NCBI GenBank assembly: GCA_000091205.1 | Contig: AP006496.2 | DNA from: Cyanidioschyzon merolae | Taxonomy: Eukaryota | Length of the DNA stretch: 64,000 nucleotides | Strand: one strand, 5' to 3' | Made by a program: the position numbers and the translations under genes | Shown here: in pieces, positions 21 to 57,685 of the stretch | Layout of the letters: the number at the start of each line of letters is the position of its first letter | Numbering within the stretch: position 1 is the stretch's first letter | The notes under the pieces: model-generated | Seen by the model: only the letters and a program-made list of their open reading frames with translations | Told to the model about the DNA's origin: nothing | Databases searched by the model: none

Positions 21-1277
21 TTGGCGACGGCAACGGAGCATCCGTGGAACAAGCCCAGTGCCCAAACTGCTCGTCGACATGCGGAGCAGTTGGTGCATGC
101 TTGCCAGCAACTTGCACCGCTGTCGATGCTCCAGCAGTTGGCCACGAGCACGGCGGTGCTGGTTACCGGAGGTCAAGCGGCTTTCGTGCAGGCCGCCCTG
201 GTTCAACTCGAACGCGTCCTCTGCCAGTGGGCGCTGCTGCTGGACCACGGCGAATGGTTAGCGCCTTTTGGGGTGTCTTTGGAAGCAGCAGCAACAACAA
301 CAACAACAACAGCAACAGCAACAGTAGTAGTAGCGAGAGACGCAGCCGATACCCCAGGCATGTCGAAGGCGCCCGTCGCGCAGCCGTGGCCGCCCCAGGG
401 ACCTGTGCGGGTACTGGTGGACCCATTTCTGTGGCCTGTTGGGGCAGCGAGTCTCGAGCGGTTTACAAGCTCGGATCAGGTGTGCTTTGAGGCGTCTTTA
501 ATCACCACTGGAGAGACGGGCACGCGGCATGTACGTCCAGTGCTCTGGGGCGGTCACTGGCAACGCGGCTTTCGGGCGCCACAACCGGCACCCGCTTCTG
601 CAGCCACTAAAGCATCCAAGGGGCTCTCGATGCCGGCACCACTGACGCTACCCGAGTTATACGGCTGTGGTTTCGTTGTGGATTTGAGTTTGCTGGCTGC
701 CGTGGCCACGATGGGCCTGACGTCTTCGCTGGACTTGTCGAGCCGCTTGCTCGCCTCGGTGTACGTCGGGATGCTGCGCGAGTCCACAGCGACGACAGTC
801 GCACGCGCAGCATCCGCCAGTGTGATGTATCTGGTGCTCCTGGGGCATCTCTGGCGTCAAGGCTGGTGCTGTATCCCCGACGACAACGATGACGACGACG
901 ACAATCATGGTGATGAGGTTGATGATAACAATGTCGGTGATGAAGACGATCATCATGATGACGATGATGACGATGACGAGCACAGCGGCAACGACACCCA
1001 TGGTCTAGCGGGGCGAAGCCTTCACGAACACCTCCAGCGAGCAGGAGCGCGCTCATGTCGTTTTCTGGTGCTCATACGCGCTCACGATGCGTCTGTACTC
1101 GTACGGGAATGTTTGGTTGCCACCAGCGGCGCCGAAGGCGACTCACTTTCGGGTACAGGGCGCCTCGAGAAAGCACGGCAGGTTTGGTTTCCCCTGGAGC
1201 AAGCTGGGCAGTATACAAACGTGGCGCAACGGGTAGCGCAGACGTTACACGACTTGCTACAGCGCCAGGATCGTTAA
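21..1277 (+). CDS. hypothetical protein, probably 5'-partial (frame is open back to the window edge); contains a (CAA/CAG)n-encoded Thr/Ala run and an Asp/His-rich acidic low-complexity insert
   Basis: 418-codon ORF with GC-rich codon usage; no in-frame stop upstream to position 3; no domain recognised. Confidence 0.4.
   Translation: MATATEHPWNKPSAQTARRHAEQLVHACQQLAPLSMLQQLATSTAVLVTGGQAAFVQAALVQLERVLCQWALLLDHGEWLAPFGVSLEAAATTTTTTATATVVVARDAADTPGMSKAPVAQPWPPQGPVRVLVDPFLWPVGAASLERFTSSDQVCFEASLITTGETGTRHVRPVLWGGHWQRGFRAPQPAPASAATKASKGLSMPAPLTLPELYGCGFVVDLSLLAAVATMGLTSSLDLSSRLLASVYVGMLRESTATTVARAASASVMYLVLLGHLWRQGWCCIPDDNDDDDDNHGDEVDDNNVGDEDDHHDDDDDDDEHSGNDTHGLAGRSLHEHLQRAGARSCRFLVLIRAHDASVLVRECLVATSGAEGDSLSGTGRLEKARQVWFPLEQAGQYTNVAQRVAQTLHDLLQRQDR
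286..335. repeat. (CAA/CAG)n microsatellite inside CDS 21..1277
   Basis: direct reading: gcagcagcaacaacaacaacaacaacagcaacagcaacag. Confidence 0.9.
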
Positions 1278-1346
1278 GCGGTATCCGCACAGGGTGCTGA
1301 CGAGGCGGTGAAGCACTGCTGCTCGAGGTGCGGCTACGGGCGTTTG

Positions 1347-1367
1347 TCTGTGTGTGTGTGTGTGTGA
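1347..1367. repeat. (TG)n microsatellite
   Basis: tctgtgtgtgtgtgtgtgtga read directly. Confidence 0.9.
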
Positions 1368-1648
1368 TCCACGTTTCTTCGCTGCCTGCTCAGTCATCGA
1401 GTCGTCGTCGTCCGTAGAGGCATCACCAAACGATGCTGTCTTCGCATGGCAATGATGGAAAACGCAGCTGCTGCTGCATCTCTGCATGGACATGAGCTCC
1501 AGGTCTCTGAGAAACACTGATATGGAGCTCGTGAAACCTCCAAGTGCTGGCAAGGTTCGCGAGCTTGCACCCCTGGTTACAGGCAACACCTGGTGTATCC
1601 GAGGCGATACTGCATTGTTCCGCAGAATCCGCTATATCAAAAGCAGGG

Positions 1649-1694
1649 TGCTGCTGCTGCTGCTGCTGCTGCTACGTCGCGTCGCGTCGCGTCA
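1649..1694. repeat. compound microsatellite (CTG)8 followed by (CGTCG)n
   Basis: gctgctgctgctgctgctgctgctacgtcgcgtcgcgtcgcgtc read directly. Confidence 0.9.
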
Positions 1695-1718
1695 CGAACG
1701 TTCACACTCCTATTGGTG

Positions 1719-3167
1719 TCAAGTTTGGCGTTGGCGTCGGACCCATGTCAATAGGTCCCGCTGGTTAATCAGTGGAAGTTGCGTAGAGGAACGGGAGGAG
1801 GTTTCAGGCAGCGCGGCATCACTGACGACTCGATAAAGCGCTCGTTTGGATCGAAAGTACTCGCGAAAATCGTTCAAATCCCAGTGCAGCTCGCGAACGG
1901 AGCGATTCGATACAACAGACCCTTTCGTTGCGCTCTGGTTTCCCGCGACTAGTAGGAAAAACAAATGGACTTGGTCACGGGCTTTGGCGTAGGTGTAGCC
2001 CATGTCGGAGCGACCATCGCGGTGTTGCTTCAAAAGTTGGACCAGAGCAGTGCGACGAGCTTGCGCGACGGCAGCCGGCTCGCGCTGTTGCTTTGTGATA
2101 AACGCAGGTTGGTTAGCGAACGACGACACCGATGCAACAGCAGACTGCCGCAGTCCAAAATGTGCACTCATCGATCGACACCAGTGTGGACGGGCAAGCG
2201 AATGCTGCGCATACGCATGATCCGCCAGTGCAGTTTCGTGGATCCAGTCATCCGGTGCGGCGGGGCTCGGGGCTTCTCGCGCGTCGCCGGCGCTATCCGC
2301 ACCACCGAGGAAACAACTTCGACAGACTGGGAAGCAGAGCGCGCGCTGCGCTGGACAGTCACGACAAGGTGGTGACGAGGTATCCGTCGCCATGGCGATG
2401 CACCATGCGTCCCAGATGTAGAAGAGGTCTGGCTCGCTCTGTCGAACGCCGCAGCAGTGACAAGGTTCGTGGTATCTCAACAAGCCGTCTTGGGCCAGCT
2501 TCGCTGGAGAGCGTCCAAGGCCAGCGCGGACCCGTGTTCCGCCGATCCGTGACCAGCTTCGCACCGTGTAGAGCGCCCGGCTGAGGGAGCATCCGAACAC
2601 TTGCGCGGCAAGTGTGGTCCAGAAACTGGACCATCGAGCATAGGGAAGCGTTTCGCAAGCCGCTGCACATGCGCCACGTTTCCCACAACTGCCTTGTCCG
2701 CGTTCCAGGACCTCTGCCCAGGTAGGATAGGCGCTCACCAGGGCGTACACGCTGCGCTGTGCCAGCCAGAGTCGCTCGGTTGCACGTCGACTTTCCACAG
2801 CGCTCGGAACTATACATTCAGACTGTGGGTGATTATCATCACAGTTAAAGCTATCGTCAACGTCAACGAACAGGTGGTAGAGAATGCGCAGCCGCAGTTC
2901 CACGGGCAACGTGGTGAAAGGGTCCTTCGCCGCAGTCTCGGGGGCAGCTTCTCCTGCAGCTGAGCGCTGCACCAGACTCCAACGCGGACGCCTTTTCGCA
3001 GACGATTCGAAAGGCACCTCAGCGCCATTGTTACTCGGTATTTCAATCAAATCTTGCAGAAGCAGATTCGTTCCACGTAGCTGGGGTAAGCGCCAGGGTA
3101 CGGTGCGCGACATGAGCGCTGCACAACTACCGCGTGCCTTCAAGTGCAGGAGTCGTACTGGGGACAA
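1719..3167 (-). CDS. hypothetical protein with a possible F-box-like motif (LPVELRLRILYHL)
   Basis: 482-codon ORF; the motif resembles the F-box consensus LPxE(I/L)xxxIxxxL; remainder Cys/Arg-rich and unrecognised. Confidence 0.4.
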   Translation of the reverse strand: MSPVRLLHLKARGSCAALMSRTVPWRLPQLRGTNLLLQDLIEIPSNNGAEVPFESSAKRRPRWSLVQRSAAGEAAPETAAKDPFTTLPVELRLRILYHLFVDVDDSFNCDDNHPQSECIVPSAVESRRATERLWLAQRSVYALVSAYPTWAEVLERGQGSCGKRGACAAACETLPYARWSSFWTTLAAQVFGCSLSRALYTVRSWSRIGGTRVRAGLGRSPAKLAQDGLLRYHEPCHCCGVRQSEPDLFYIWDAWCIAMATDTSSPPCRDCPAQRALCFPVCRSCFLGGADSAGDAREAPSPAAPDDWIHETALADHAYAQHSLARPHWCRSMSAHFGLRQSAVASVSSFANQPAFITKQQREPAAVAQARRTALVQLLKQHRDGRSDMGYTYAKARDQVHLFFLLVAGNQSATKGSVVSNRSVRELHWDLNDFREYFRSKRALYRVVSDAALPETSSRSSTQLPLINQRDLLTWVRRQRQT

Positions 3168-3199
3168 GGAAATGCGCGCCGGATCGACGCGCCGGCTGG

Positions 3200-3935
3200 C
3201 GCTGCGGTTGCGATTTCAAAAATGGATCGTGGGATTTTCCTCAGTTTCATAGAATATATACGTAAATATACATCGATGTTCAAGACTGACAGTGCTGCGG
3301 TTGCGATCTCAAAAATGGATCGATGGGATTTTCCTCAGTTTCATACAATATATACGTCCATATACATAGGTGTTCAAGACTGATAGTGCTGCGGTTGCGA
3401 TCTCAAAAATGGATCGATGGGATTTTCGTTCGTTTCATAGAATATGTACGTAAATATACATCGATGTTCAAGACTGACAGTGCTGCGGTTGCGATCTCAA
3501 AAATGGATCGATGGGATTTTCCTCAGTTTCATACAATATATACGTCCATATACATAGGTGTTCAAGACTGATAGTGCTGCGGTTGCGATCTCAAAAATGG
3601 ATCGATGGGATTTTCCTCAGTTTCATACAATATATACGTCCATATACATAGGTGTTCAAGACTGATAGTGCTGCGGTTGCGATCTCAAAAATGGATCGAT
3701 GGGATTTTCCTCAGTTTCATAGAATATATACGTCCATATACATAGGTGTTCAAGACTGATAGTGCTGCGGTTGCGATCTCAAAAATGGATCGATGGGATT
3801 TTCCTCAGTTTCATAGAATATATACGTCCATATACATATGTGTTCAAGACTGACAGTGCTGCGGTTGCGATCTCAGAAATAGACTGATAAGATTTTCCTC
3901 AGTTTCATAGAATATATACGTACATACGTCACGTA
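3200..3935. repeat. 94-bp tandem satellite, about 7.8 units in two alternating sub-variants
   Basis: unit gctgcggttgcgatctcaaaaatggatcgatgggattttcctcagtttcatacaatatatacgtccatatacataggtgttcaagactgatagt; unit starts at 3200, 3294, 3388, 3482, 3576, 3670, 3764, 3858; the last unit is degenerate. Confidence 0.9.
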
Positions 3936-5169
3936 TACAGACCAGAGATCTCCGAAGGCGCGCTTGCTACCAACGAATGGAAAAGTATCCATTGTTCCAC
4001 ACGTTACTTCCAAGTACTGCTACCCATACGTTCAGTCGGAGGTATGTATCGATGGATGCAGCCAACGTGACGCTAGGATGTGTGTCGCGTAGCGCTTTGA
4101 GGCCTTCCAGCGAGGCTCGCTCCATATCCGTTTGCCTAATATCCTGCTGGGTACTTCGTTCGTTTGCTAATGCGCCTGCGAGCCTGCTTGCTGCTTCGCG
4201 CATCCGCCAGGCCGTTGTCTGCTGTTGCACGCCGTCTTCCACAGAGGGCCAGGTATGGTACGAATCGTTCTGCTGCGTCCATACGTCTCGTGACAAGTTC
4301 AGCATGAAACGCGAGCGAGCACATCTGGCTTTGCTTATCTATCCCAGTAAGTGTGTCGCATAGCAGGTGATATCCGATGGGGCGTCAATGAAAATAACGT
4401 TTGCTCCAGGCGGACGCAGGCGTTGTCGCAAGTACGCCCCATGCTGGATGTGGTACTTGATCGCGTGCATCGATCACAAGCATGAGCATTAGCGTGCGCC
4501 GCGGTCTCATTTCACTCGTGAACCCTCTACCAGACGAATGGAGCACGATCGGCACCTGGAGATTTACGAAGGCCGGCGTTTTCATTTGCATGGCTGAGCA
4601 GGGCCGCAGCCGGTGCCTCTTGGTTTCCGAGTCGCTGCGAAGACCTCGGAGCTACGTTCTGCTGCTGGGAGTATTCGAACGCCTCCAAGATGCGTGCGTG
4701 CGTGCGTGCGTTTTTTGCTCGACTGCTCGTGTTACCGGTGCCCGAGCCGCCGATGCTTGCGTCACCGTTGCTGACGCAATGACGTCGTTTTCCGAGCAAC
4801 GTCTCGAGGAATAACGGGCACAAGCGAACGTTATGACGCAAGCAAGTGCTGAAAGCTCCGGATTTTCGTTTCTGCTGCATCGCTCTCGGTTCCGTGAAGT
4901 GTCTGACGCTCCACAAACCGATGGGATTGCGAATAGATACGCGTTAGAGCGCTTCCATGATGCTAGTTTGCTCTGACGATATCGAGCGTAGGCGTTCGAG
5001 TCTAAAAGTGATATGCATCTCCTCGCATTGTATGGAAATGGTTCTTCTGCTCAGGCGCACCGAAAGCGCGCCACTGGTGCGGCATTCGGGAAAGAGTCTG
5101 TCGCGCCTGATCGCTGGTCCTCGCAGTCCGCGAGACCCGGGCGTCCGCACGGCGCCATAAGTGCCGCAC

Positions 5170-5990
5170 AGGGCGTTCACGGGCGGCATTCGGCACCTGC
5201 AGGACCGCTTGAGGGCGCCAGAGTCTCCGAATCGACGAACCGATCATTGTGACCTGTGGATTTCAAGGTCTGACTCGGACCGATGGACGCACTCCCGGAT
5301 ACGGATAACCATTGGAACGCAGAGGATCCATGGTTCGTGGAAACGATCCTATAGTCTTTCACCTCATTGGTGTTCCATCTCCAGGTTGCTTGTCATCAAA
5401 TGCCGCTTCATTAGGTATACCAGAAGCTTTCAAAGTGCGTTCGTTTCCGAAAATACAAAATCCAAGGGATAGGTATGGAGATGCACGTCGGAGATCTTGG
5501 AGGACCGTCATCGCCGGGTGCCGGAGAAAAACACCGGGGGAAGATGCCTTCTCACTCACCATTGAGCGGAGAGGAGCAGCCAACGAGGAAGATGAAGGAG
5601 AAGCGGGGGAGAGATCGGCGAGAAAAAGAAGTTTATCGGACGGGACGATGACGAGTCTGTAATGACAATGAGGGTACGAGTTCTAGCAATGCTTCCACCT
5701 GTGCGTTCAACTATCGGCAATAAACGCATGAAGTTCGTGAACCTAGACTTTTACGCCGCCATCAGTATCAGGAGATGTGCAGAGCTGAACACGAGACCCG
5801 CGGAGCTGAGGCGATCCAACTTTCTGGGCCAGCTTTTGATGCTCGAACTGTGCAAGTAGAAATTGAGAGCGATAGCAGGGGGCCGGTCTAAAAACACTGG
5901 GAAACTCCTGTGAATAAGCATGAATTTAGACTGTATGATCTTGGGATATATTTCGTTTCGCGGGTCGTCACACACCGAAAATCATACTGC
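5170..5990 (+). mobile_element. family F1 TnpB/Fanzor-like relic, standalone copy L1
   Basis: ORFs 5312..5662 and 5662..5859 encode ...AFSLTIERR... and ...GNKRMKFVNLDFYAAISIRRCAEL.... These align with the module at the 3' end of the Tc1-like element (33658..34170: ...SALAIETNRERRE...GNKCIEFVNRDLNAAIHTRRCAAL) and with copies L3 and L4. The downstream non-coding tail (ggccggtctaaaaacactgg...) is shared. The 5' limit (about 5170) is inferred from a match between antisense ORFs 5177..5362 and 58647..59051. Confidence 0.5.
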
Positions 5991-9461: not shown

Positions 9462-10514
9462 TCAGGATGTGCGACGTTGGTACGAACCTCGAAAGCGCCA
9501 CAGCATCCACAGCGCTACGCAAAGGCCCACAAAGTGGCTTAAAAGCGCGTTGGTGTTCGCTTGCACCACGAAAATATCCAGCGCTTGAACGTAGCCGACA
9601 GTACCACCACCGGCCTGAATACTGCCGGTCGCGTAGAATGGTAGCGGCCCTGCCACGCCTTGGCTCAGCGCCTTGGCTAAAAGGACTCCACTGATGCTCT
9701 GCGCCCCGATAAGCGTCAGCGCCATCCCTAAAATATTGATGAAGACACCTATCCGCAGCGTGCGGAAGATGTTTTCGCTGCGTATGCCGTAGCCCATCTT
9801 GCCCGCGCGCATCAGACGCCGGGCAAGGCGGATGTACCCATAAGCCCAAAACACCGATATAAACGCAAAAACGAGGCCAATGCCGGCAAATATCAGGCCA
9901 GTGGATGCGGCAGTCGTCGTTGTTGTCCCAGCTCCGCGAGTTCCCTGCAGAATGGCCACCGCAAACAGGGTAATGCCTCCAGCAACTATCGAAAGCAGTA
10001 GTTGCGCCCACCAGGCCACCGCCCCGAGGCGATAGAGTGCAGCGCTCACACGAGTCACATCCAGACTATTAGGGGACTCCCCAGAGTCTCCAATATCTGG
10101 CGAAAAACTCTCGTCTATGTCCTCGTCGGGTTCACGGGCAGCGTGTGCAGGCCGGCTGGGGTCGGCGCCGCTCGCGCTCCTGCCCTGCAAACGCAGACTC
10201 CGCCACCAGCACGACGTGCGCCGTTCACGAACCCGCCGTACACTGGTGGTAATCAGGTGTCGTGGCAGTCGATCCCCGACAGCCTGTCGATGAAACGCCC
10301 TTGGCACTGCAGAAAATATCGTCGTGAACGCCAAATCCATTAGAGGAACGTTCTTGTAAGTAGCGAAGCGCTTTCCAGTGAGCGCTGCAGCATTGCTGCG
10401 CGTACGGAGATTGTGTGTGGCGGGACGCGCAGCGGCTGGCACTTGGCTGTTCTCCCATCCAGCGTCGATACTGCAAAGCCAGAAGAGCATAGCACGAGAC
10501 ACACTTTTATACAT
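9462..10514 (-). CDS. integral membrane protein, possibly DUF3611-like (cyanobacterial/plastid-type), with a Ser/Arg-rich N-terminal extension
   Basis: 350-codon ORF; C-terminal 190 aa contain 3-4 predicted TM helices (LGAVAWWAQLLLSIVAGGITLFAVAIL; GLIFAGIGLVFAFISVFWAYGYIRLARRL; GVFINILGMALTLIGAQSI; ALDIFVVQANTNALLSHFVGLCVALWMLW). The DUF3611 assignment is from memory of that family and is tentative. Confidence 0.5.
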   Translation of the reverse strand: MYKSVSRAMLFWLCSIDAGWENSQVPAAARPATHNLRTRSNAAALTGKRFATYKNVPLMDLAFTTIFSAVPRAFHRQAVGDRLPRHLITTSVRRVRERRTSCWWRSLRLQGRSASGADPSRPAHAAREPDEDIDESFSPDIGDSGESPNSLDVTRVSAALYRLGAVAWWAQLLLSIVAGGITLFAVAILQGTRGAGTTTTTAASTGLIFAGIGLVFAFISVFWAYGYIRLARRLMRAGKMGYGIRSENIFRTLRIGVFINILGMALTLIGAQSISGVLLAKALSQGVAGPLPFYATGSIQAGGGTVGYVQALDIFVVQANTNALLSHFVGLCVALWMLWRFRGSYQRRTS

Positions 10515-10558
10515 GGGGTGTACATACTAGCAATTGGGCTTCTTCCCAGTGTCATGAA

Positions 10559-11940
10559 CGCCAGCGTGCTAGGGCTTTTCCCATGATTGCATCCTTTTTT
10601 TCTCTGTGATCCTAGGCTGTAACGACACCTGTCTCTCCTGTCTCTGTTGCTCCGTCGTCACCAGTCGAAGGACATTATAGATACCAGCGTGCTCGGGCTT
10701 TTCCCATGATTGCATCCTTGTTTTCTCTGTGATCCTAGGCTGTAACGACACCTGTCTCTCCTGTCTCTATTGCTCCGTTGTCACCAGTCGAAGGATATTG
10801 ATAGCAGCATTCGAGTCCCAAGGACGCAGCTTCTGGTTAAGATCGACTCAGTTGGTACACGGGTAGCAATAGCAATCTATAGCTCGCTGGTTATTTTCAT
10901 TTTTTTCTTAGGGAGCCTCGGTGCGCCCTTCGCAGCGGTAACGCTCGACTGGTGTCAGGTGCTCCACAATGTCTAACACTGTTCCTCTTTCGAGGGTTGA
11001 CGCGTGCAGCGCGCAAGCTTGCTTCATCGCTCGATAAATGTCCTTGACCGATGGAGACGGCTTCTCTGCAGGCTCTCCTCTGTTTCCACGTCCAGAGTCG
11101 CGGCTTTTAGTAACGCTCTTGTTCTCGGTGATTCGTTCTGCGAGTGCGCTGTTCGCTGCAGGTACGAGCGCACGCTGTTCCATTCGATACAGGATTTGTG
11201 GAACGCGGTGTCGTCCATGATGAAACAAGTACGGGACAGAAAATCCGGTCTGGAGAACCTGTCCGGAGATTTCGATCTGTCTTTGTTCGCTTCATGCAAA
11301 GTCGTGAAGCACGCGCCACTGGAAGCGGTCTTGGCGAAGTCTAAAGTCCGAGTCCAAGGCCCTGTTGCATGCAAACAGGAGAGACGCGAATCTCTGAGAA
11401 CGTATTCCACGCGAGACATATCATGATGATGTCGGATTCCGTTTCATCGATCGGGAAAAAAGAGCCGGATTTGGCTCTCGAACGAAATCGATGACTTAAT
11501 GTGACAAATTCAGGACATATTTTCCATGAACTTATGAACCATTCGTCAAGAGATGACGCCGAGGTTTTTCCTCGCCAATTCAGGGGCACGAATCGCTGCA
11601 CCCATGAGTTGCCCTGAAACAGAAGAGATCAAAAACTCGGGGAGTGTGTGATCTGAGCATGCTAGACCGAAGGAAATAAGATGCGTGGATGTTCGTATGT
11701 ATGAACTTGGTAAATGATATCAATGATTTAACGAATTCATGTTCGAAGGCGCTGCGAGCCATCTTGTTTCCCGCTCCGCCACGACTTCCATCGGCGAGGA
11801 TTCGAAAGCGCCATCTGGAACGTGCAGCCGAGAATCTCAGAAATAGGTTCCCATGCGTACGCCCTTCTTGTTGCACTTCGAATACCAGGGTACCGCATTT
11901 ACGAAATAGTTCGAGAAAGAAGTCGAGTAGCAGCAACAGA
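10559..11940 (-). mobile_element. family F2 TnpB/Fanzor-like degenerate element, copy 1, about 1.4 kb with its 3' tail tandemly duplicated
   Basis: On the minus strand, ORFs 11580..11936, 11341..11601, 11024..11419 and 10908..11228 follow one another in shifting frames. They end in ...VLDIVEHLTPVERYRCEGRTEAP (zinc-ribbon remnant), and a third frame near 10785..10832 encodes DSNAAINILRLVTSEH (RuvC-III-like D-x-NAA-x-NIL). Each segment aligns with the corresponding segment of copies at 40990..42197, 49088..50290 and 55240..56445. A roughly 100-nt tail ending ...aagcccgagcacgctgg is shared. Confidence 0.55.
10560..10807. repeat. tandem duplication (2 x about 124 bp) of the F2 copy-1 3' end (last codons plus non-coding tail)
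   Basis: units 10560..10683 and 10684..10807 are about 93% identical; minus-strand ORF 10569..10751 reads ...SLQPRITEKTRMQSWEKP twice. Confidence 0.85.
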
Positions 11941-13287
11941 GCGATCAGCTCAGTATTCTATATCCATGGTACACGGGTTCTGATCGCGAGCACCATTCCA
12001 TGAAACAGGCGTTCCGCAAGCGCCTGCTAGACCGAGTTCGCTCCTGCTGGCATGCGGTGCATCACACGAGTACAACGTCCAGCGCAATGAATACACCAAT
12101 GGAAACCCATCCCGGTGATCGCGCATATCCATGCCCTGACTTGTTGCTGACACCACCGAGTATCGATATGTTTGCCGGGCGAGGTTCGGCTGGTGACGCA
12201 TTCATCGAACGATGAACGCACACAGGTTCGAGGCGTCGACGCACCAGGCTCAAGTGAGCCCGCCAAGGGCATCGCAAGCCCGTATTCGTGGTCTTTTTGA
12301 ATGGAGCAAGCCTCGGCGAGCGCGTCTGCCTCTATGGAATCATAGACGACGAATGCCCCGTGACGCGTACATCTCCCAGGTGTGCTGTGCCTGTGGCATG
12401 CGCATACCAATGTCAAGCGAGAACAACATTTTCCATAATGAGATTTCCGACGCACACAGCTCTGTACCGCGAGTTGCTTCCTGCTCTGGTCATAATAGGC
12501 GTAGTTCCAGGTGGCTGCGCCCCGACCGGAAACGCTTTCCCAAAAAAGTCATCACCAGAGGGTGAAAGCGATGAACGCATCCTCCCGAGCGATCTTGAAC
12601 GCGTCTTTTTCTGCATACCGCCATGAATGGAGAGCGCTCCACCAGAACACAACGGATATCCGAGTACGCATCACTGCAAAAGCTGGACGTCTCACGGCAG
12701 GTGGTACGCTCAGCGAGTCAGTCGCGGTGAGGCGTGCACGCTACACGTGCTCGGAAATGGACAACTCGCGTTTTGCACGGATTCCAAATTTTTCATCTTT
12801 CGCGTTTGCTCTGTCTCTGGCCCAGAATGCAAGAGCGTCACGAACAAGCCTTGCCCCGTAACGAAAGCAACGTACCAGATCGTTGCGGAGCAGTGGAAGC
12901 ACTGTACAGATTCGCGCTTTGGAAGCATCTGAAAAGCTACTTAGTACATATTTAAACAATAATGAACGTAATGTACATTCGTGCTTTGAAACGCTCCCGA
13001 AAGCAATCCTACCATCTACTTACACAATACCGAAAGCAATACACATTCGTGCTTTGAAACAATCCCGAATGCAATCTACCGCATCCTTCAATGATAGCGA
13101 AAGCAATCTCCATCAGCGTCCAACTGTATCCATAGAAAGAGCGCTGGTAGCGTCAGCCGCGCAGGTTAACCCAGCGGTACACGCCTTGCCCCAGGGGATG
13201 GTGCAGTTCGCCGCCGCCGTCGATATGCACTTGAGCCGGCGACGAGCATCGCGGAAGCAGTGGTATCGGGAGTGGCGATAGACGACC

Positions 13288-32221: not shown

Positions 32222-32560
32222 GATTCAACCACCGAAAATGTTTCGCGATCATGTGGAAAATTATTGCCCACCAGCAGGGGCGCCACAGTCTTTTTCGACC
32301 GGCCTACTGCTATCGGCTTGAGCTTCTCCTGCCACACCACGGGCATTAGAGGGTGTCCCACAAAGCTGGATCGCGTCAGCTCCTCGGTTCTTCTTCAGCA
32401 TCGCACATCGTCTGATATTGGTGGCGACGCGAAAGTCTCGGTTCACGATTTTCTCGCGTGCATGAACGCCGGTTGAGCTCATCAATGGAAGGATTCTTCG
32501 AACTCGTGCCCTCTGTGACACTCCAGTCTCGTCATCGACCGTCGGGGAAACAAATTTACT
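32222..32560 (-). mobile_element. family F1 TnpB/Fanzor-like relic, copy L3; the 5' limit is uncertain and may reach about 32780, abutting the Tc1-like element
   Basis: minus-strand ORF 32261..32521 MSQRARVRRILPLMSSTGVHAREKIVNRDFRVATNIRRCAMLKK aligns with QRARVRGLLALTSSTRGNKCIEFVNRDLNAAIHTRRCAALKK of the element copy. The tail (plus-strand reading cagtctttttcgaccggcctactgctatcggcttgagcttct) is shared with L4 and L1. Confidence 0.45.
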
Positions 32561-40538: not shown

Positions 40539-40989
40539 GCCTCACCGGGGTGCTGCACCTGTCGCCCGCCAGGCCGCCCGGTGTCGAGCGCGACCGGGTT
40601 CGACGGTGTTTTCCGCGATCCAGTGTCTCGCAGTAGACAGTTCGAGAGAGACCAGTTCCGCACTCGGGTTTCAGGAGTGCAAGACCGCGGCACCAGCTGA
40701 CGGATCAGCCAGAAACCCGCCCAGCTATGGAGCGCGTCAAGCGTTCAGCGTTGCCTGCGGGCAGCTCCGAAGCGCGCGCTTCTTTGCGCGCGTACCGGGC
40801 GCGTTTCCCTTTCGGGCCGGGGCGGCGAACGTGCAAGGAATGTTTCGTAGACGAAGCTTGTTTTTTTCTTCTGAATGACAAGATACAGGTCATGAGAGAT
40901 CAACATAGACTATTGATTGCCTGCTTATGTTTCTGTATTTAGAATTTTTCCAGAGTTTTATGTAGATGTGCAGCCTCCAGGTTCAATGT

Positions 40990-42197
40990 GCAGCGATGAG
41001 GGCTCACGAGTCACGCATCGTTTCGGGAGACTTGGTCAGTGTTTCGGGGCTGGGCGGCGTCGCTCGACGCTTTTCCACTGGAATCCGTTCCGTCATTGTC
41101 ATCAAGATCATTCGCACCGCCCTTGAATAAGGCTTTTTGGAAGAACAGATACCACGATCTACTTCATTCGTACAAGCTGTCACGTATCGCAATCCCGTGC
41201 ATGGAGCACGCCCGAAGCACGCGTGCTTCACGTCCTTCATCTGTGTGCTCCAGGGAAACTCGTGGGTACAGCAGTTCGCGCCACTGGATTGATGAAAACG
41301 AAACCTCGACGTCCGTTCTTGACGACTTCATCTCCGTCGCGAGCGCATACTGAAAGCTCACTGAGCTCGTCACTTCAAAGAATTGGTTCTTGTCGAAAGG
41401 AAAATCCTCCTCTTTCTGTGGCTATCGACGAAATGGAACGTAACAGCAGCATCGTGTCTGTCACGGAATGTATGTCCCCAGAGGCTCTCGTCTCTTCTAG
41501 ATACATCAAAATGCGGCCTCAGCACGCACTTGAGCCATCGCAACGATCGCTTCCAGTAAAGGACAAATCACTGCGTTGAACGCCGGGTTCGCAGACCAGT
41601 AGAGGTGTCTCTAGCTCCTTTCGAGACTAGATTCTCCTTCCGCTACTTGTTTCATCATGAGTTGTATCGCGTTCCCCGTATCCTTCATCGATTAGAGCGG
41701 CACGCGGTGGCAGGTGCACCACACAGCGCGCACTTGTCGATGGGATCGCCCAGAAGACGCCTGTGATCACAGCGTACTGCACGGGCCGCGTAAACAGAGG
41801 AACGCTACGAGGAGCGTCCCCTGTACCCGTCATGAGCATGTAGAGCGTGCTGGAGGAAACATTCGCAGGCATCAAGGCGCGACTCGGATGGGACGCTGTA
41901 ACGTACACACGTGAACACCTGACTGTAGTCGACTGCAACCGCTGCGAAGGGCGCTGCCTGGCTGACTTCACACAAGATGAGCATGAATGGCAATCGAAGT
42001 GTAGATCGCAACTTTTGCAAGCGCATGCCGTGCGTGAACAGTGACTGGATGCGGCGAAATCGAGACTTTACCGCTACCAGCAGTATCCTCCGACTGCTGA
42101 TGTCAGAGCTGTAGGTTCAGAGGGGACCAGCGTATTGAAACCCTGAGATACGAGAAACAAGGGAGGCAATCACAGATACAGCTACCAAACGCTGGCG
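40990..42197 (+). mobile_element. family F2 TnpB/Fanzor-like degenerate element, copy 2
   Basis: plus-strand ORFs 40917..41126, 41039..41353, 41223..41579, 41714..41914 and 41847..42044 align segment by segment with the other F2 copies (for example ...REHLTVVDCNRCEGRCLADF... zinc ribbon). A shifted frame gives DFTATSSILRLLMSEL. The tail ...gagaaacaagggaggcaatcacagatacagctaccaaacgctgg matches the copy-1 tail. Confidence 0.5.
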
Positions 42198-43012
42198 TCG
42201 GTCGCAGCGGGTAGAAATCAAAACTTTAGCGTGCACACCCGCGTTCGTTGACGCGTACCATTGCCTTCTAGCATGGGTACAGGTCATATGTGCGTCGATA
42301 CATTTCTTTTTCGGTACCAGATCTCGGCATTGAACCGCGTGGTACCGGGATCTGCAGGTGCTACCGGAGCATGAGGAGGAGGAAAATCCAATACACACCT
42401 GGATCGATTCAGATTCGCTTCTTCCTACGATGATGCCCAGCGCCCCATTTCTCGCAGGAACAGAAGCTGAATCTAGAGAACTTTTGAGTAGCAAGTTCCA
42501 CGATGGATTGTTATGTTATAGAATCTGTGAGCATGACCAAGGATTCCCCGCTCTACCATGAATGCTTGCGACGAGGACTCATGCACCACATTCTCGGTTG
42601 CTCTGCACAGAGACAGCACGTGTTGACGATACCTTGGCGAACGTCGGCTCGAAGATAGATTCGTTGCTGTTGGATATGGAGACGGGCACTCGTTCCTCGC
42701 CCGTGTGGAGCGTCTCGGACCGAAACGCACAAGTCGGCACACTGCCCAGCACTAGAGGCACCGCTGCGCCCCGCGAATCGCAGCAGCTGGACAAGTTCCA
42801 GGTAGCAGTCGCCGTGGAATGTTTGACTGGACCCGGTGCCTGCTCTAGTCAGGGCACCGTGAAGCAGCTGGGCCACTGCTGCAGCGAAACTCTGCGCGTC
42901 TTCAGACTGCGTCCGACGCTGGCGAGAACGACGCAGAGACCAGCCAAGACAGCGGTGGACGCGAGAGGGTCCCGTCTCGACGTGGCGCCTTCGGAAAAAG
43001 CAGCCCCTGGAC

Positions 43013-48850: not shown

Positions 48851-49087
48851 GGCAACGGGTCGGGCACTCGAACCAGTCGCGCAACACCCAAAAGAGGCGT
48901 TGCGTACTTGCTGCGACGTTGCCGCCTTGCTGTCGACTGCGCAGCAGCCTCACATCTCCATTCCGACGATTTCCGCGGCTTCATGCCGGGTTGCGAACCC
49001 GAGACCCATGTAACCATAAAATGGAACACGTTCACGAACACAGGCATACACGTTCAAGTATGGCGCTCTTCACACAGTCATCAACAC

Positions 49088-50290
49088 CTGCATATACGGG
49101 TTCTGTCGATGACTGCTTCCGTTGCCCCCTCTTTCATCTGCGGATGTAAACACACCAGTCCCTCGTGTGCGTCCAGCTCCATTGTCAGCAGTCAAAGAAC
49201 GTTGAGAGCAGCGTTCAAGTTCTGATTACGCAGCTTGCGGTTGTTGTAGATGCGTTTGGTACACAGACGAAAGTTGCGATCTACACCTCGTTTGCAATTT
49301 TCATCTTCTTTGGATACAGCCTCTGCGCACCCTTCGTCGCAATGCCATTTGCCTGTGGTCAGGTGTTCCCGAATATCAACCACGTCTCCTTTGCCGATCA
49401 CCGCACTGTGGATCGTGAACGCCTGCCTCATCGTTCGATGCCTGCACTTGACGAGAACAGCGAGCTTCCCTGGTACGCCTCGCCGGTTTCCGTGCCGAGT
49501 TCCGTACCCTACGATCACGTCGGGGAATACTCCGTCCGCTGTATGCGGAAGCGCATACTGTTTCATTGAACAGAGGATTCGTGGAGCGCGATGCTGTCCA
49601 TGATGGAACTAGTACCGAAAGAAGAATCGATGCTTTAGAACAAGTTGAGAGTTTTCGGTCCGTCAACGCACCCATCGTGCAACAGAGGGATGAAGATTTC
49701 TCTCTGGAACGAAATCGATTATCTAGCTTCTCAAGCTCAGTGATCTTTCGGCATGAGCTCGTGTACGAGCCGACAAGTGACGGTGTCGAGTGTGTTTCGT
49801 CGTCGGCAATCCAGCGATGCTAATTGCAGCGCTCACGAATCTCCCTGAAACGGAAGTATCGGAAACGAGAAGACTGCGGGATTTGAGGATACTGCACGTA
49901 AGGAAATAAGAAGCGCGGCAGCTCTTAGGCACGCATTGCACCATGATACTGGTTATTTTACGAATCCTTGTTCGAAAGCGTCGCAAATCATTTTGATCGC
50001 GGTCACTTACCGGACCACTGAGAAAACACGATCGAGCTTCCAAAACCTACGTGTGATTTCGCAAGCCCCTACTGCTGGACTTGGAATGTCGAGGATTTGC
50101 ATTAAATGAAAAAATTTCCGGAAAAATCGCAAGGCGTCGACAGAAAGACCACTTCCATGTCCCTGTTCCATCTGACACGGGTGAAGGAAGCGACAGCATT
50201 CACAGGACGTGAGGAGTTCCGTTCGGCTGACGGATCCTATGTACACAACACGAGGAGCGGGATGTTGACGAGCGGCCGGTCTGACGTTCA
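49088..50290 (-). mobile_element. family F2 TnpB/Fanzor-like degenerate element, copy 3
   Basis: minus-strand ORF 49192..49566 ends ...DVVDIREHLTTGKWHCDEGCAEAVSKEDENCKRGVDRNFRLCTKRIYNNRKLRNQNLNAALNVL-stop (zinc ribbon plus RuvC-III-like motif at the very C-terminus). The tail ctgctgacaatggagctggacgcacacgagggactggtgtgtttacatccgcagatgaaagaggg... matches the copy-1 tail. Upstream segments (49376..49675, 49723..50043, 50007..50291) align with copies 1 and 4. Confidence 0.5.
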
Positions 50291-54633: not shown

Positions 54634-55239
54634 GGCTAGTGGACCTATTCCGCTATTAAGGGTAAATGCCCACAATCGCTGCTTTCGTGAAACCACCAAT
54701 TGCGATTGACATGATGTCGAAGATGAAAATCCGCTGCGATGCCATGGCGCACCGATCGAGCGATGGCAGAATCGGCACTTCGAGCCGACGCGCGCAGGGC
54801 CACCCGCGGGCCACATCCAAATTTGGGCATCGTCGGCGCTGTGCGCGCACACGCATGCATCTCGCGCTACCAAATTGGTATTTGCGTTGCGAGCGCGTCG
54901 ACACGCAGACCTGCGATCCTCGATGGCGCGCGCCTGCTGCGCGGCAGTCGCCAATTGGACGGGGCGTGCAGGCCTGCGATCGCCTGGCGACGGCCGCTCG
55001 CCGCGCCGCAATCCCGTCAGCTGGTGAACGGAGCTGCGCTGGTGGCGGCGCGTCGCGTGCATTCGACGCCCCGGCACCAGTCGCTGCAGGGCCGCTTCCA
55101 AATGTGGTGGGCACGTCGTCGTCGATCTGCGCTGTGTGGTGGATAGATTTGGAAGGTGAGCGTGTGGCATCAAAACCTGTAGGTACTGTTCTTGAATTGC
55201 GCTCTTTTTTTCCGAACCTTTTTTAGATGTACCGCTTAC

Positions 55240-56445
55240 ATGTTTGAAGTGCATCAGTACTGGCTTGGGGATTCATACATAGCTTGAAGACGCTCCGAAG
55301 GGTTTTCGGTGTTGCTCGTTCGACGCGTTGGCGCTTGAGCTCGATACCGCATCGGACTGAAGATGATTCGCGACGTATTCGAAAAATGCTTCGTAAAATA
55401 TCGGATATCGTGATCAAATTCGTACGTATAAGTTTCCGTTCTTTTCCTTTACTTGCGAGTGGCATGCTTAAATCACGCGTTCTTGAAGCAATCGATCTCT
55501 CTGTTCGATGGGCGTCGTATTTCCGGAGCGATTTGCGCAGCAGGATTGACACGAGGGGAGAAATTTTTTACGTCCTTCGTTGAAGACGAGTTCACGAGCG
55601 CATGACGAAAAGGCGAGTGAACTCGCCACCTCAAATAATGGATTCCGTTCGATAGCCAAATCGTCTTTCTTTAAGGCTACCGACGAAATGGAGCTCCTCA
55701 CCAGCAGCATGATAGCTCTCCCGGGCAATGCGCTCAGCAGATTCTTTCTCCTCTGTTTGCGTAGGAGAGATTCTTGGACTCGAGTCAAGCCAGCGATCGC
55801 GCCCACTGGGGAGCGCGTTACTGCTTTTCACGAAGCGAGCGTACAGGGATCAAGAGATCTCGACTTGTTTCGCAGCCTTGAATTCCCATGCAGTGCAAAA
55901 GTTCATCATGAATAGCATCGCGTTCCACAAGACTCCGAGCGAATGGGAAAGCGTGCGCTTCCACTTCCAGCGTACAGCGTAATCGTCGAGTCGATCGCCT
56001 ACAAGACGCCAATGATTCTAAGGTACCGCGACGCGTACACAACACGACAAGTGCATCCAGCGGTGCATGCGGTACCCGCCGAGCGCATGTACCGAGCGAT
56101 GAGGCAGGCCTTCACGCACCACAAGATAGCCCTTGAGGAATGAGGTGTGTTGGGCTTATAGAAACACCTTATTCCATCCAGCTCGCACCGCGGCGAAAGG
56201 CGCACTGACGCTGTGTGCAAAATAGATGAAAACGGCAACCTGAGCATGGAGCGCAACTTCCGCCTGTCCATGAAATGTGTCGACAACAACCGGAAGCGAC
56301 GAGATCCGGACTTCAATGCCGCCATGAACACCCTTTGGGCGTTGTAAGCGGAGATGGAGGCACGCGAGATACCAGCGTATTTTAAAGCCGAAGATACGAG
56401 ACATGAAAGAAGCAGTGAAAGAAAAAGCCCGGATAGGTCAGTATT
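55240..56445 (+). mobile_element. family F2 TnpB/Fanzor-like degenerate element, copy 4
   Basis: plus-strand ORFs 55284..55583, 55580..55915, 55728..55982 and 55943..56143 align with copy-1 segments (for example IAFHKTPSEWESVRFHFQRTA versus TAFHKSCIEWNSVRSYLQRTA; RMYRAMRQAFTHH versus DIYRAMKQACALH). The frame ending at 56346 reads AVCKIDENGNLSMERNFRLSMKCVDNNRKRRDPDFNAAMNTLWAL-stop. The tail matches the other F2 tails. Confidence 0.5.
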
Positions 56446-57685
56446 CCAGACACTGAAACGAGATCCAATCGATAAATTGTATGCCCGCGTTACTGGACCC
56501 TTTCCGACGCAGTCTGAATTCGGTGCCTTAATCGCTGGTTATCGTGCCACTGCGTATACGTTTCGACGAAGAAGAGGCTCCCCTGCGGAGAATTGAGCAA
56601 GGGTCCATGTTCGGCGCAGCGCAGTGCTCGATATGGCAGACCGCGGATTACCAGGGCGCATCGTCCGCGTCAGACACACTAGACACGAGTCGGTGCGCAC
56701 AGCATCCATTGTCAGTCTGCGAACACACGCAAAACCAGGTGCTTGGTCGGTGTCTGAGCACCCGCATTCGTGGTAGCGAGAAACCGATTGCCTGCGAGGT
56801 GCCTCGTATTCGATAACATGATGGTCGCTAGAATAGCCGCAGATTTGATGGTGCTTGTGTACGGGCCACCAGCGGCAAGTATCAACAACCTTACGAATGC
56901 GGTACTCCGTCGACAGTGCACACCAAGAGGACTCAGGCGCGGCGACCAGTGCATGCCGCGCTCAGGACCCGACGCTGGCGCACCACGAACCGGTCGGATG
57001 TGCGTCTATGCTTCAAGCGGCAACGGCACCTGCTCTGTCCATGCTTCGTACTGTACCATCCAATAGAGCAAAGGAGCGCCCTACCCGAAACGAAGCACGC
57101 TCGAGTCCCCGTTCATTGATGGCAAGCACTCGAGCGTGCTCCGCTTTCGCGAGCGAACCATAAAGCGCATTCTCGCCGTTTCGCCACTGGTCGTCTGCGG
57201 AACATAGCGCCGAGGTTTGTGACAGCGGGTATGTCGTGCAACCGTGGCCTCTCATCGAGCTCCAATGCCGGATCGGGTGCACTGAACGCTGCGTCACATC
57301 TGACGAGCCAATGCCGCAGCGATGCAGCACTAGAGGCCTTACGAGGCCGGCACTGTACCTCGACTCACATATGAGGATACACTTGCGGCCCGGGAAGCAA
57401 GGATCCGAGCGTATTCCTCCTGAATCAACGCTGTGTTCCCCGCGAACGCTCTTACGGAAGCCGCTCTACGAGGACACTGAGCCCGCGTTCTCGTGGGTAC
57501 GCGAAGCGCACCAGGGAAGTGCTTTGCTCACAGGCGCCGGTTACAGTGCAGTCGTGCGGCACGCCCCGACATCGCCATATACTGGCCTCACTGGAGTACG
57601 CCAGGAACGCGTGTGCAAGCCGCGGTTCTCGGAAAAACCCCAGCCGGACGCTCCCACAGCACTTGCCGTGGTGCTCCGGCAACTT

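What the first reader, a model, noticed from the sequence alone, without database searches (positions are those of the whole stretch)
10559..11940. Family F2: four degenerate TnpB/Fanzor-like elements of about 1.2-1.4 kb, each ending in a zinc ribbon, a D-x-NAA-x-NIL motif and a conserved non-coding 3' tail (candidate omegaRNA scaffold)
Four loci share colinear homology over about 1.2 kb when translated in shifting frames: 10559..11940 (-), 40990..42197 (+), 49088..50290 (-) and 55240..56445 (+). Each ends with a Cys-rich ribbon (WHCDEGCAEAV...ENCKRG...RLC; RYRCEGRTEAP; VDCNRCEGRCLA) followed at the extreme C-terminus by NLNAALNVL, DSNAAINILRL or DFNAAMNTLWAL. That arrangement is the RuvC-III signature of TnpB/Cas12/Fanzor nucleases, found in the same position in those proteins. 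Directly after the stop, about 100 nt of non-coding sequence is conserved between copies (ctg[c/g]tgacaa[t/c]ggagc ... gac[a/t]ggtgt[c/g]gtt[t]aca[g/t]cc ... aagga.gcaatcatgg ... cgctgg). That is where TnpB and Fanzor systems encode their guide RNA scaffold. Four copies in 64 kb of an otherwise gene-dense eukaryotic region is a striking density. The conceptual proteins are frameshifted, so they are either decaying pseudogenes or, as in many Fanzors, interrupted by short introns.
Basis: partly seen in the sequence, partly recalled or inferred. Interest (0 to 1): 0.85.

Follow-up and report, generated by a model that had tools for sequence, protein, structure and literature searches.

The report
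Dead transposase–Fanzor hybrid transposon copies
The four loci are long-dead copies of one small cut-and-paste transposon of the red alga Cyanidioschyzon merolae, in which the front of a Tc1/mariner-type transposase gene was fused by an internal deletion to the last third of a Fanzor1 (RNA-guided nuclease) gene; it is a real genomic fossil, but of an already known kind.

Summary
The window is C. merolae 10D chromosome 14. The four loci are true colinear homologues (65-76% nt identity).

Their 3' ~545 nt derive from a Fanzor1 gene: zinc ribbon, RuvC-III motif and the C-terminal RPxYL motif.

The ancestral stop lies ~120 nt further downstream. The tail is no better conserved than the rest of the element and has no predicted structure.

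The 5' ~700 nt are not Fanzor. They are the first three-quarters of an IS630/Tc1-mariner DDE transposase.

A consensus of 17 copies (4 from the window, 13 from metagenomes) shows a ~1.38-kb element with 26-bp terminal inverted repeats and probable TA target duplications. All 17 copies share the same transposase|Fanzor junction. The family is therefore a non-autonomous deletion derivative of a two-gene (transposase + Fanzor1) transposon.

RuvC-I, WED and REC are deleted. Every copy carries frameshifts and stops at different positions, and substitutions are equal across the three codon positions. This is neutral decay, not introns.

The family is distinct from CMe-1A, the one Fanzor1 family published for this alga.

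It is the only plausible ωRNA remnant, and it is unproven.

The parts
10471..11979 (-). Copy A, whole element (1509 nt, including a 123-nt internal tandem duplication)
   Evidence: Boundaries were mapped from the 17-copy alignment. The 5' end reads AACCCGTGTACCATGG. The 3' end reads ...GCTTTGCAG followed by the flank 'ta'.
11189..11898 (-). Copy A, remnant of an IS630/Tc1-type transposase. It holds the HTH regions, the first Asp (PIDET) and the second Asp (IMDDTAFHK).
   Evidence: Frame-corrected translation. The identity is shown at consensus level. Direct comparison of this single copy with P0253 is not significant.
10528..11188 (-). Copy A, Fanzor1 C-terminal remnant: ILYRMEQRAL...RYRCEGRTEAP...DSNAAINILRL...ERQVSLQPR.
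   Evidence: hmmsearch with the family profiles. Tandem duplication at 96% identity.
10471..10527 (-). Copy A, true 3' untranslated module plus 3' inverted repeat (decayed)
40874..42279 (+). Copy B, whole element. The 5' inverted repeat is unrecognisable; clear homology starts at about 40945.
40966..41686 (+). Copy B, transposase remnant (VAIDEMERN..., CFIMSCIAF)
41687..42228 (+). Copy B, Fanzor1 C-terminal remnant (REHLTVVDCNRCEGRCLA...RNRDFTATSSILRLLMSEL*VQRGPAY)
42229..42279 (+). Copy B, 3' untranslated module plus 3' inverted repeat (...CTAGCATGGGTA)
49003..50183 (-). Copy C, whole element (1181 nt). It has the best-preserved inverted repeats: 5' CACCCGTGTCAGATGG and 3' ...GTTCCATTTTATGGTTACATGGGTC.
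   Evidence: 22 of 26 matches to the consensus at each end.
49572..50102 (-). Copy C, transposase remnant. A 156-nt deletion has removed the first-Asp region.
49054..49571 (-). Copy C, Fanzor1 C-terminal remnant. It contains the 124-aa ORF 49192-49566 (VIVGYGTRHGN...REHLTTGKWHCDEGC...RNQNLNAALNVL).
   Evidence: A near-identical ORF occurs in a second strain (P0012 / L003).
49003..49053 (-). Copy C, 3' untranslated module plus 3' inverted repeat
55142..56525 (+). Copy D, whole element. The 5' inverted repeat is unrecognisable; clear homology starts at about 55207.
55227..55937 (+). Copy D, transposase remnant (KATDEMEL..., KFIMNSIAFHKT)
55938..56474 (+). Copy D, Fanzor1 C-terminal remnant (...ERNFRLSMKCVDNNRKRRDPDFNAAMNTLWAL*AEMEAREIPAYLKPK)
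56475..56525 (+). Copy D, 3' untranslated module plus 3' inverted repeat (decayed)

Best explanation
Each locus is a decayed copy of one ~1.38-kb non-autonomous DNA transposon family of Cyanidioschyzon merolae.

Parent element (inferred). The parent was a two-gene Tc1/mariner(IS630)-type element: inverted repeat, ~307-aa DDE transposase, ~550-640-aa Fanzor1, ~55-nt 3' module, inverted repeat.

Deletion (shown). One internal deletion of ~1.7 kb joined transposase codon ~235, just after the second catalytic Asp (DNIAFHK), to Fanzor1 at ...ILYRMEQRALARAAD. It removed the third catalytic residue of the transposase and the WED/REC/RuvC-I half of Fanzor1. The joint is out of frame.

Spread (inferred). 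The derivative kept both ends (26-bp inverted repeats) and was spread by a transposase supplied in trans, inserting at TA.

Decay (shown). All copies have since diverged neutrally, by about 20% each from the founder.

The Zn-ribbon/RuvC-III 'signature' and the 'conserved tail' are inherited coding sequence of the Fanzor1 C-terminus. No copy can encode a nuclease or a transposase.
For: Organism: exact matches to C. merolae 10D proteins BAM81240-81254.

Fanzor part:
- hhalign of the family profile against the 4-copy consensus gives probability 99.9, E 5.7e-34.
- The 17-copy consensus scores 182.7 bits against the 60-sequence profile.
- That profile hits solved Fanzor1 structures 9cf0 (E 2.8e-19) and 8gkh (E 2.9e-16).
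- The consensus passes Pfam's gathering score for PF07282.
- A model of relative P0004 (pLDDT 86) matches SpuFz1 at E 7e-14.

Transposase part:
- tblastn of the intact transposase P0253 against the consensus gives E 3e-25 over aa 1-252.
- Pfam DDE_3 scores 41.3 bits against a cut-off of 28.6. NCBIfam IS630 gives E 7.9e-17.

Parental architecture:
- The contig that carries P0253 holds the transposase (110-1033) followed by a 636-aa PF07282 protein (1126-3036) on 3273 nt.
- A decayed transposase-then-Fanzor pair also lies in the window itself, at 28370-25818 (-).

Element ends:
- Homology between copies begins and ends exactly at an inverted repeat matching 23 of 26. The shuffle maximum is 18, and it is the best inverted match anywhere in the element.
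- TA flanks 12 of 32 ends.

Single origin: all 17 copies have the same junction spacing.

Decay:
- Each window copy has 2-7 frameshifting indels and 4-10 in-frame stops, at different sites in each copy.
- Pairwise differences are about 0.40 at all three codon positions.
- None of the 13 further copies has an ORF longer than 213 aa.
Against: - The transposase identity and the inverted repeats are seen only in consensus sequences. Single window copies give no significant match to P0253. The window-only 4-copy consensus gives only E 2e-4 and 0.012.
- Copies B and D lack a recognisable 5' inverted repeat.
- TA flanks survive at only ~40% of ends.
- No full-length parent of this family was found.
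- The two-gene contig is a distant relative (32% identity) and no DNA is available for it.
- The 13 metagenomic copies come from unidentified organisms, presumably Cyanidiophyceae.
- The junction is placed only to about ±10 nt.
Confidence: 0.85

Rival explanations
1. One reading: four degenerate but complete TnpB/Fanzor elements, each ending in a non-coding ωRNA scaffold (the ~100-nt tail), possibly interrupted by introns rather than dead.
For: - The Zn ribbon and RuvC-III motif are genuine.
- Fanzor ωRNAs are indeed encoded at the 3' end of the locus (PMC10432273).
Against: - The 5' 55% of each unit is a transposase remnant, and no RuvC-I is present.
- The tail is in frame with the conserved Fanzor1 C-terminal RPxYL motif.
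- The tail is no better conserved than the rest of the element.
- The fold z-score is -0.47 and RNAalifold gives -4.5 kcal/mol.
- There is no Rfam match.
- Frameshifts are copy-specific and the three codon positions have diverged equally.
Confidence: 0.04
2. The copies are members of CMe-1A, the Fanzor1 family already published for C. merolae.
For: Same genome. Bao & Jurka report ~150 CMe-1A copies at ~80% identity to their consensus. CMe-1A fragments do occur in this window.
Against: - The CMe-1A 3169-bp consensus has no significant nucleotide similarity to the F2 consensus; the best match has E 0.7.
- The proteins are only 24-25% identical over ~150 aa.
- CMe-1A is reported to lack inverted repeats.
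Confidence: 0.03
3. The loci are fragments of an endogenised giant-virus genome rather than transposon insertions.
For: The closest intact Fanzor relatives (44-50% overall; 76% over one 58-aa stretch) sit on gene-dense, virus-like metagenome contigs. L006 carries an Rpb2 gene plus many small ORFs without annotation. L005 carries RNA ligase, 2H-SAK and Peptidase_S74 genes.
Against: - At least 17 dispersed copies share identical ends and the same internal junction.
- They have inverted repeats and TA flanks.
- Each window copy sits alone between unrelated host genes, with no viral genes beside it.
- A viral route of entry for the parent element is not excluded.
Confidence: 0.04
4. The loci are exons or paralogues of an ordinary multi-copy host gene family.
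For: None beyond the repetition itself.
Against: - No intact ORF exists in any copy.
- Homologues are transposases and Fanzors only.
- The positions are intergenic and divergence is neutral.
Confidence: 0.01

Closest known systems
PUl-1 / PUl-2 of Pythium ultimum and other Mariner-type elements that carry Fanzor1 (Bao & Jurka 2013, PMC3627910)
   Same: Inverted-repeat element with TA duplication. An IS630/Tc1-mariner transposase gene lies upstream of a Fanzor1 gene on the same strand. This is the architecture inferred for the parent, and it is seen on the contig that carries P0253.
   Different: F2 is an internal-deletion derivative of ~1.38 kb, against 3.6 kb for PUl-1. It retains only transposase codons ~1-235 and the last ~181 Fanzor codons. 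All known copies are dead. Sequence similarity to the PUl-1 transposase is marginal (E 0.07).
SPu-1 / SpuFz1 elements and their 'ghost' derivatives in Spizellomyces punctatus (PMC10432273)
   Same: Fanzor1 clade, with structural and profile matches. Inverted repeats of ~30 nt. [quoted passage not shown] Non-autonomous derivatives keep the ends.
   Different: SPu-1 has no transposase gene and its copies are intact and active, with a demonstrated 75-nt ωRNA scaffold. For F2 no RNA evidence exists and RuvC-I is deleted.
CMe-1A, the published Fanzor1 family of C. merolae (PMC3627910)
   Same: Same host. Both are old, degraded Fanzor1-bearing repeats, and both occur in this window.
   Different: No DNA similarity. 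Protein identity is 24-25%. CMe-1A is 3.2 kb, encodes a 734-aa protein, and is reported to lack inverted repeats and to be unclassified.
Prokaryotic TnpB (IS200/IS605, IS607) OMEGA systems
   Same: Shared RuvC-III plus zinc-ribbon (TNB, PF07282) module, and ωRNA at the 3' end as a family trait.
   Different: Eukaryotic host. No TnpA. The association is with a DDE transposase and inverted repeats. Similarity is only at Pfam-domain level.
Internal-deletion (MITE-like) derivatives of Tc1/mariner elements
   Same: Ends retained, core deleted, amplified in trans, TA target.
   Different: Here the deletion happens to fuse parts of two different genes, which gave the misleading impression of a small complete Fanzor element.

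Membership tests
Fanzor1 (Bao & Jurka motif D-X(125,275)-[TS][TS]-X-X-[C4 zinc finger]-X(5,50)-RD) | [TS][TS]-x-x followed by a C4 zinc ribbon (Pfam PF07282) | tested here: met
   The 17-copy consensus reads EHLTTVKCHRC...RLCMKC. PF07282 scores 28.5 bits against a cut-off of 26.3. The 4-copy consensus scored 21.9 bits. Single copies gave no Pfam hit because cysteines have been lost.
Fanzor1 | RD / D-x-NAA-x-NIL (RuvC-III) near the C-terminus | tested here: met
   The consensus reads RNRDLNAAINIL. The Asp is kept in A, B and D and has changed to Asn in C.
Fanzor1 | RuvC-I Asp (GxDxGR) 125-275 residues upstream, with a WED/REC N-terminal half | tested here: not met
   No match in any frame of any copy or consensus. 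The region is occupied by transposase-derived sequence.
Fanzor1 | Significant sequence relationship to experimentally characterised Fanzor1 proteins | tested here: met
   The copies link to the 60-sequence profile at 45-57 bits each and 182.7 bits for the consensus. That profile links to PpFz (E 2.8e-19) and SpuFz (E 2.9e-16). The match covers the C-terminal third only.
Fanzor1 | Fanzor/TnpB fold | not testable with these tools
   Only the intact relative P0004 could be modelled. It has pLDDT 86, and its top Foldseek hits are SpuFz, PpFz and GtFz. The consensus sequence could not be submitted for structure prediction.
Fanzor1 | ωRNA encoded at the 3' end of the locus | tested here: inconclusive
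The true 3' module TACGCCY...RGGTGTA is conserved in F2 and in 5 intact relatives. Its 7-bp closing stem is 97.6% paired, but only one pair varies (247 of 500 shuffles do as well). No RNA data are available.
Fanzor1 | Intact ORF with catalytic residues | tested here: not met
   Each window copy has 2-7 frameshifts and 4-10 stops. The longest ORF in 13 further copies is 213 aa or less.
Tc1/mariner/IS630 DNA transposons | DDE(D) transposase of the DDE_3/IS630 type | tested here: met
   On the consensus, DDE_3 scores 41.3 bits (cut-off 28.6) and IS630 gives E 7.9e-17, aligned to profile positions 20-260 of 299. P0253 gives E 3e-25. The first and second Asp are present; the third catalytic residue is deleted.
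Tc1/mariner/IS630 DNA transposons | Terminal inverted repeats | tested here: met
   23 of 26 positions match, exactly at the limits of homology between copies. The shuffle maximum is 18. The repeats are not detectable in single window copies by gapless search.
Tc1/mariner/IS630 DNA transposons | TA target-site duplication | tested here: inconclusive
   TA occurs at 5 of 17 5' flanks and 7 of 15 3' flanks, against the roughly 6% of dinucleotides that would be TA by chance (my estimate, not computed). Only one copy has TA on both sides.
CMe-1A (C. merolae Fanzor1 family) | Nucleotide similarity to the 3169-bp CMe-1A consensus (copies ~80% identical) | tested here: not met
   No alignment better than E 0.7. 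Protein identity is 24-25%.

The most novel reading that the evidence does not exclude
The short 3' module shared by F2 and its intact relatives (TACGCCY, then a 31-55-nt loop, then RGGTGTA, starting 2-67 nt after the Fanzor stop and ending at the element terminus) may be the ωRNA scaffold of an uncharacterised Fanzor1 clade. That clade includes compact proteins such as the 551-aa P0004, found on virus-like contigs. On this reading the F2 deletion derivative spread because it kept this module, acting like the ωRNA-bearing 'ghost' elements of Spizellomyces. The clade would then have reached a hot-spring red alga by a viral route.
Probability: 0.2. Interest if true: 0.5.

Novelty: new member of a known kind. 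Interest (0 to 1): 0.28.

Why it matters
It matters little for biology at large. Fanzor1 genes in C. merolae, and Fanzor1 carried by mariner-type transposons, were described in 2013, and these copies are inert.

Three modest points remain:
- C. merolae holds a second Fanzor1 lineage, apparently undescribed, that is unrelated at the DNA level to CMe-1A and has clear inverted repeats.
- The case shows how an internal deletion can fuse a transposase head to a Fanzor tail and so mimic a miniature 'complete' Fanzor locus. This is a trap for motif-based scans.
- The conserved 3' module in the intact relatives gives a concrete candidate ωRNA for an unstudied clade of fairly small Fanzor1 proteins.

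Tried and rejected
- Pfam on single-copy fragments gave nothing relevant.
- PDB sequence searches with a single consensus or with P0002 gave nothing.
- My first conclusion was that the 4-copy consensus restores one 397-aa ORF. This was partly an artefact. A consensus frameshift near PPLF|VAIDET switched from the transposase frame into an alternative open frame that runs on into the Fanzor frame. The 17-copy consensus and P0253 corrected it.
- I proposed three candidate RuvC-I sites by eye (FDLSVSG, PLD*R, VAIDE). None is supported, and two of them are transposase motifs: the second HTH and the first catalytic Asp.
- A scan of the viral contig collection with the relatives' profile found no relatives.
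The scan with the single consensus worked.
- The search for a 5' inverted repeat around the intact relatives was inconclusive.
- Rfam gave no match in the window.
- Exact look-up of the host SEY1-like ORF on contigs found nothing. The cluster look-up identified the organism.
Full report
ORGANISM AND SETTING. Seven of eight long ORFs of the window submitted for exact look-up are in the protein collection; six of them are exact matches to Cyanidioschyzon merolae 10D proteins (BAM81241-81254, on an 852,727-bp record, chromosome 14), and the seventh clusters with BAM81240. This red alga is nearly intron-free. It is already known to carry one old Fanzor1 family, CMe-1A: ~150 copies, ~80% identical to a 3169-bp consensus, no inverted repeats, unclassified (Bao & Jurka 2013, PMC3627910).

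THE OBSERVATION. Local blastn of each locus against the window finds the other three colinearly, at 65-76% identity and E 1e-5 to 1e-15, and finds nothing else. A four-way alignment has 64% mean column identity. All quoted peptides and tail motifs are present. The 3' ends align well above shuffled controls. So the repeat family is real.

THE FANZOR PART. Single copies give no Pfam hit. A majority consensus of the four copies gives a sub-threshold hit to PF07282 (Cas12f1-like TNB, formerly OrfB_Zn_ribbon; 21.9 bits). That consensus also retrieves metagenomic proteins with EHLTTKKCxxC...DRDFRxCExC...RNRDFNAAINIL.
- A profile of ten such relatives matches each window copy at E 1e-9 to 6e-20.
- The same profile matches the consensus at hhalign probability 99.9, E 5.7e-34.
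- An exhaustive search finds 543 relatives, typically 650-850 aa. Some of them pass Pfam's threshold for PF07282.
- A 60-member profile hits the solved Fanzor1 structures of Parasitella (E 2.8e-19) and Spizellomyces (E 2.9e-16) right up to their C-termini.
- An AlphaFold model of the intact relative P0004 (pLDDT 86, pTM 0.81) has SpuFz1, PpFz and GtFz as its best structural matches, followed by Cas12b and Cas12f.

THE 'NON-CODING TAIL'. In every intact relative the protein continues past NAAINIL as LLExELxGeERPxYL.... The RP residues are nearly invariant across the 60-member family and are present in SpuFz1 and PpFz1.
- The supposed stop is TAG in A and B but GAC in C and GAG in D.
- In a 17-copy consensus the frame stays open for ~40 more codons, reading ...ELEGQERPAYLKPEIRERKRKQSQKKPANAGVDDSGKRPKL*.
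- Identity in the tail (0.59-0.60) equals that of the rest of the element.
- RNAalifold gives -4.5 kcal/mol with 13 pairs.
- The consensus tail folds no better than shuffles (z -0.47). Nor does the whole 3' 239 nt (z -1.33).
- Rfam finds nothing.
The tail is inherited coding sequence, not a scaffold.

PSEUDOGENES, NOT INTRONS. Relative to the consensus, the copies carry 2-7 frameshifting indels and 4-10 in-frame stops, at different positions in each copy. C also has a 156-nt deletion, and A has a 123-nt tandem duplication. Pairwise differences are about 0.40 at all three codon positions. This is neutral decay from a common founder.

MORE COPIES AND THE TRUE ELEMENT. One scan of metagenome contigs returned 27 loci, of which 13 are distinct. 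They are 64-75% identical to the window copies, none is orthologous to them, and none is intact.
- Aligning 17 copies shows column support rising and falling sharply at consensus positions 243 and 1618, which gives a ~1.38-kb element.
- Exactly at these limits lies a 26-bp inverted repeat: CACCCGTGTCAGATGAAAATGGAACA against CACCCATGTCAGAATAAAATGGAACA. It matches 23 of 26 positions, against a shuffle maximum of 18, and is the best inverted match in the whole element.
- TA adjoins 12 of 32 ends.

THE 5' HALF IS A TRANSPOSASE. No search found a Fanzor N-terminus or RuvC-I. Instead the following was found.
- The first ~184 codons match NCBIfam IS630 transposase (E 4.8e-8).
- They retrieve an intact 307-aa transposase, P0253 (HTH_Tnp_Tc3_2 + DDE_3; E 3.2e-9 against 5.8 billion proteins).
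- P0253 aligns to the consensus over aa 1-252 at E 3e-25. Shared motifs are MYSLD.R..AIR.Y, ST..RW, GLTRK.T, V.(V/I)DETAF and DN.AFHK.
- The translated consensus passes Pfam's threshold for DDE_3 (41.3 bits against 28.6) and matches IS630 at E 7.9e-17.
- The transposase frame and the Fanzor frame differ. They meet at consensus position ~1030, just after the second catalytic Asp, where Fanzor homology begins at ILYRMEQRALARAAD.
- All 17 copies have the same spacing across this joint, so one deletion preceded the amplification.
This corrects my own earlier reading of a single 397-aa ORF, which arose from a frameshift in the 4-copy consensus.

A caveat applies. Single window copies are too decayed to match P0253 directly, and the window-only consensus gives only E 2e-4 and 0.012.

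THE PARENT ARCHITECTURE. The contig that carries P0253 (3273 nt) has the transposase at 110-1033 followed by a 636-aa PF07282 protein at 1126-3036 on the same strand. This is the layout of the mariner-type Fanzor1 carriers PUl-1 and PUl-2 described in 2013.
- The window itself holds an old example on the minus strand: a DDE_3-like remnant at 28370-27950, followed by a CMe-1-like Fanzor at 27322-25818.
- Adding back the deleted ~1.7 kb gives a parent of ~3.1 kb.

RELATION TO CMe-1A. The published CMe-1 protein and CMe-1A consensus, taken from the paper's supplements, hit six other places in the window but not the four loci. The F2 consensus shares no DNA similarity with CMe-1A and only 24-25% protein identity with CMe-1. 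F2 is a separate family.

THE REAL 3' NON-CODING MODULE. Between the true stop and the 3' terminus lie ~53 nt: TACGCCCGAGTTAGAGGACCTGTTCCATTTTATTCTGACATGGGTGTA.
- The same bracket (TACGCCY, a 31-55-nt loop, then RGGTGTA) follows the stop codon of five intact relatives that are only ~45% identical in protein sequence.
- It folds as a stem-loop with z -2.5 (dinucleotide-preserving shuffles) to -4.2 (simple shuffles) for the F2 consensus and z -3.7 for L005. These segments were chosen by their ends, which inflates z.
- The 7-bp closing stem is 97.6% paired, but only one pair varies (CG 2, UA 2, UG 1, CA 1). That is not significant: 247 of 500 shuffles do as well.
In the window copies it is decayed.

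VERDICT. The loci are inert relics of a transposase-Fanzor hybrid deletion derivative of a mariner-type transposon. The family belongs to a known kind and appears not to be described in the one paper that catalogued C. merolae Fanzors. Whether it is in Repbase could not be checked.

Noticed in passing
window 5416-5532 + 5661-5922 (+); 58104-58364 + 58470-58619 (-); 32275-32524 (-); 33763-34101 (+); 44473-44829 (-): Fragments of the published CMe-1A Fanzor1 family. Two of them share the same internal-deletion form, with CMe-1A nt ~830-970 joined to nt ~2830-3085. Together with the four F2 copies and the old element at 25818-28370, the 64-kb window holds ten Fanzor-derived relics.
   Followed up: partly
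window 32781-34157 and 44436-45811 (inverted, 99% identical): A young 1.3-kb duplicated unit. It has an intact 234-aa ORF (32960-33664 / 44928-45632) with weak IS630/DDE_3 similarity (Pfam E 5.7e-4; NCBIfam IS630 E 1e-4). A CMe-1-type Fanzor C-terminal fragment follows directly. This is a second transposase-plus-Fanzor-tail hybrid. It hints that the 'unclassified' CMe-1A lineage is also tied to an IS630/Tc1-type transposase.
   Followed up: partly
window 25818-28370 (-): An old, decayed two-gene arrangement. A DDE_3-like transposase remnant lies at 28370-27950 (the 234-aa ORF matches it at E 6e-7; the F2 transposase part at E 3.6e-4). Downstream lies a CMe-1-like Fanzor1 covering aa 125-652 (27322-25818).
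   Followed up: partly
window 10561-10676 and 10684-10799: A 123-nt tandem duplication (96% identical) inside copy A. It doubles the C-terminal 'tail' region and arose after insertion.
   Followed up: yes
window 40885-40893 and 42279-42287: Copy B lacks a recognisable 5' inverted repeat. The 9-mer ACAGGTCAT occurs only twice in the window: once near the 5' limit of copy B and once straddling its 3' end. This may mark a secondary rearrangement or a microhomology event.
   Followed up: partly
window 53974-55254 (-) and 9462-10514 (-): Two likely annotation artefacts. The 426-aa 'similar to lysyl oxidase' CDS (BAM81252.1) has an N-terminal extension that is absent from its 219-240-aa homologues, and it overlaps the 5' end of copy D on the opposite strand. 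The 350-aa version of the DUF3611 gene starts inside the 3' end of copy A, whereas the NCBI model is 292 aa.
   Followed up: partly
L003 (Logan SRR7787170) against window 48908-50492: The orthologous locus C in a near-identical strain differs by 17 substitutions. All 17 lie inside the element and none lies in ~400 nt of flank. This fits neutral evolution of the relic next to constrained flanks.
   Followed up: partly
window 3136-3999; 50453-50654; 12949-13076: Tandem repeats unrelated to the finding: a 94-nt unit repeated about 9 times, a 101-nt unit repeated twice (just upstream of copy C), and a 68-nt unit repeated twice.
   Followed up: no
L001 922-992; L005 7222-7283; L038 ~2519-2581; L039 ~1652-1720; L040 ~1265-1309: Intact Fanzor1 relatives on metagenome contigs all carry the 3' module TACGCCY...RGGTGTA shortly after the stop codon. 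Some of these relatives lie on gene-dense, virus-like contigs (L005, L006). The module is a candidate ωRNA scaffold or right end for this uncharacterised clade.
   Followed up: partly
L015 and L022 (metagenome copies of F2): In these loci an F2 copy is followed immediately by a CMe-1A-type 3' fragment (73% identical to window 32246-32514). This suggests that the two families share insertion hot spots or nest within each other.
   Followed up: no
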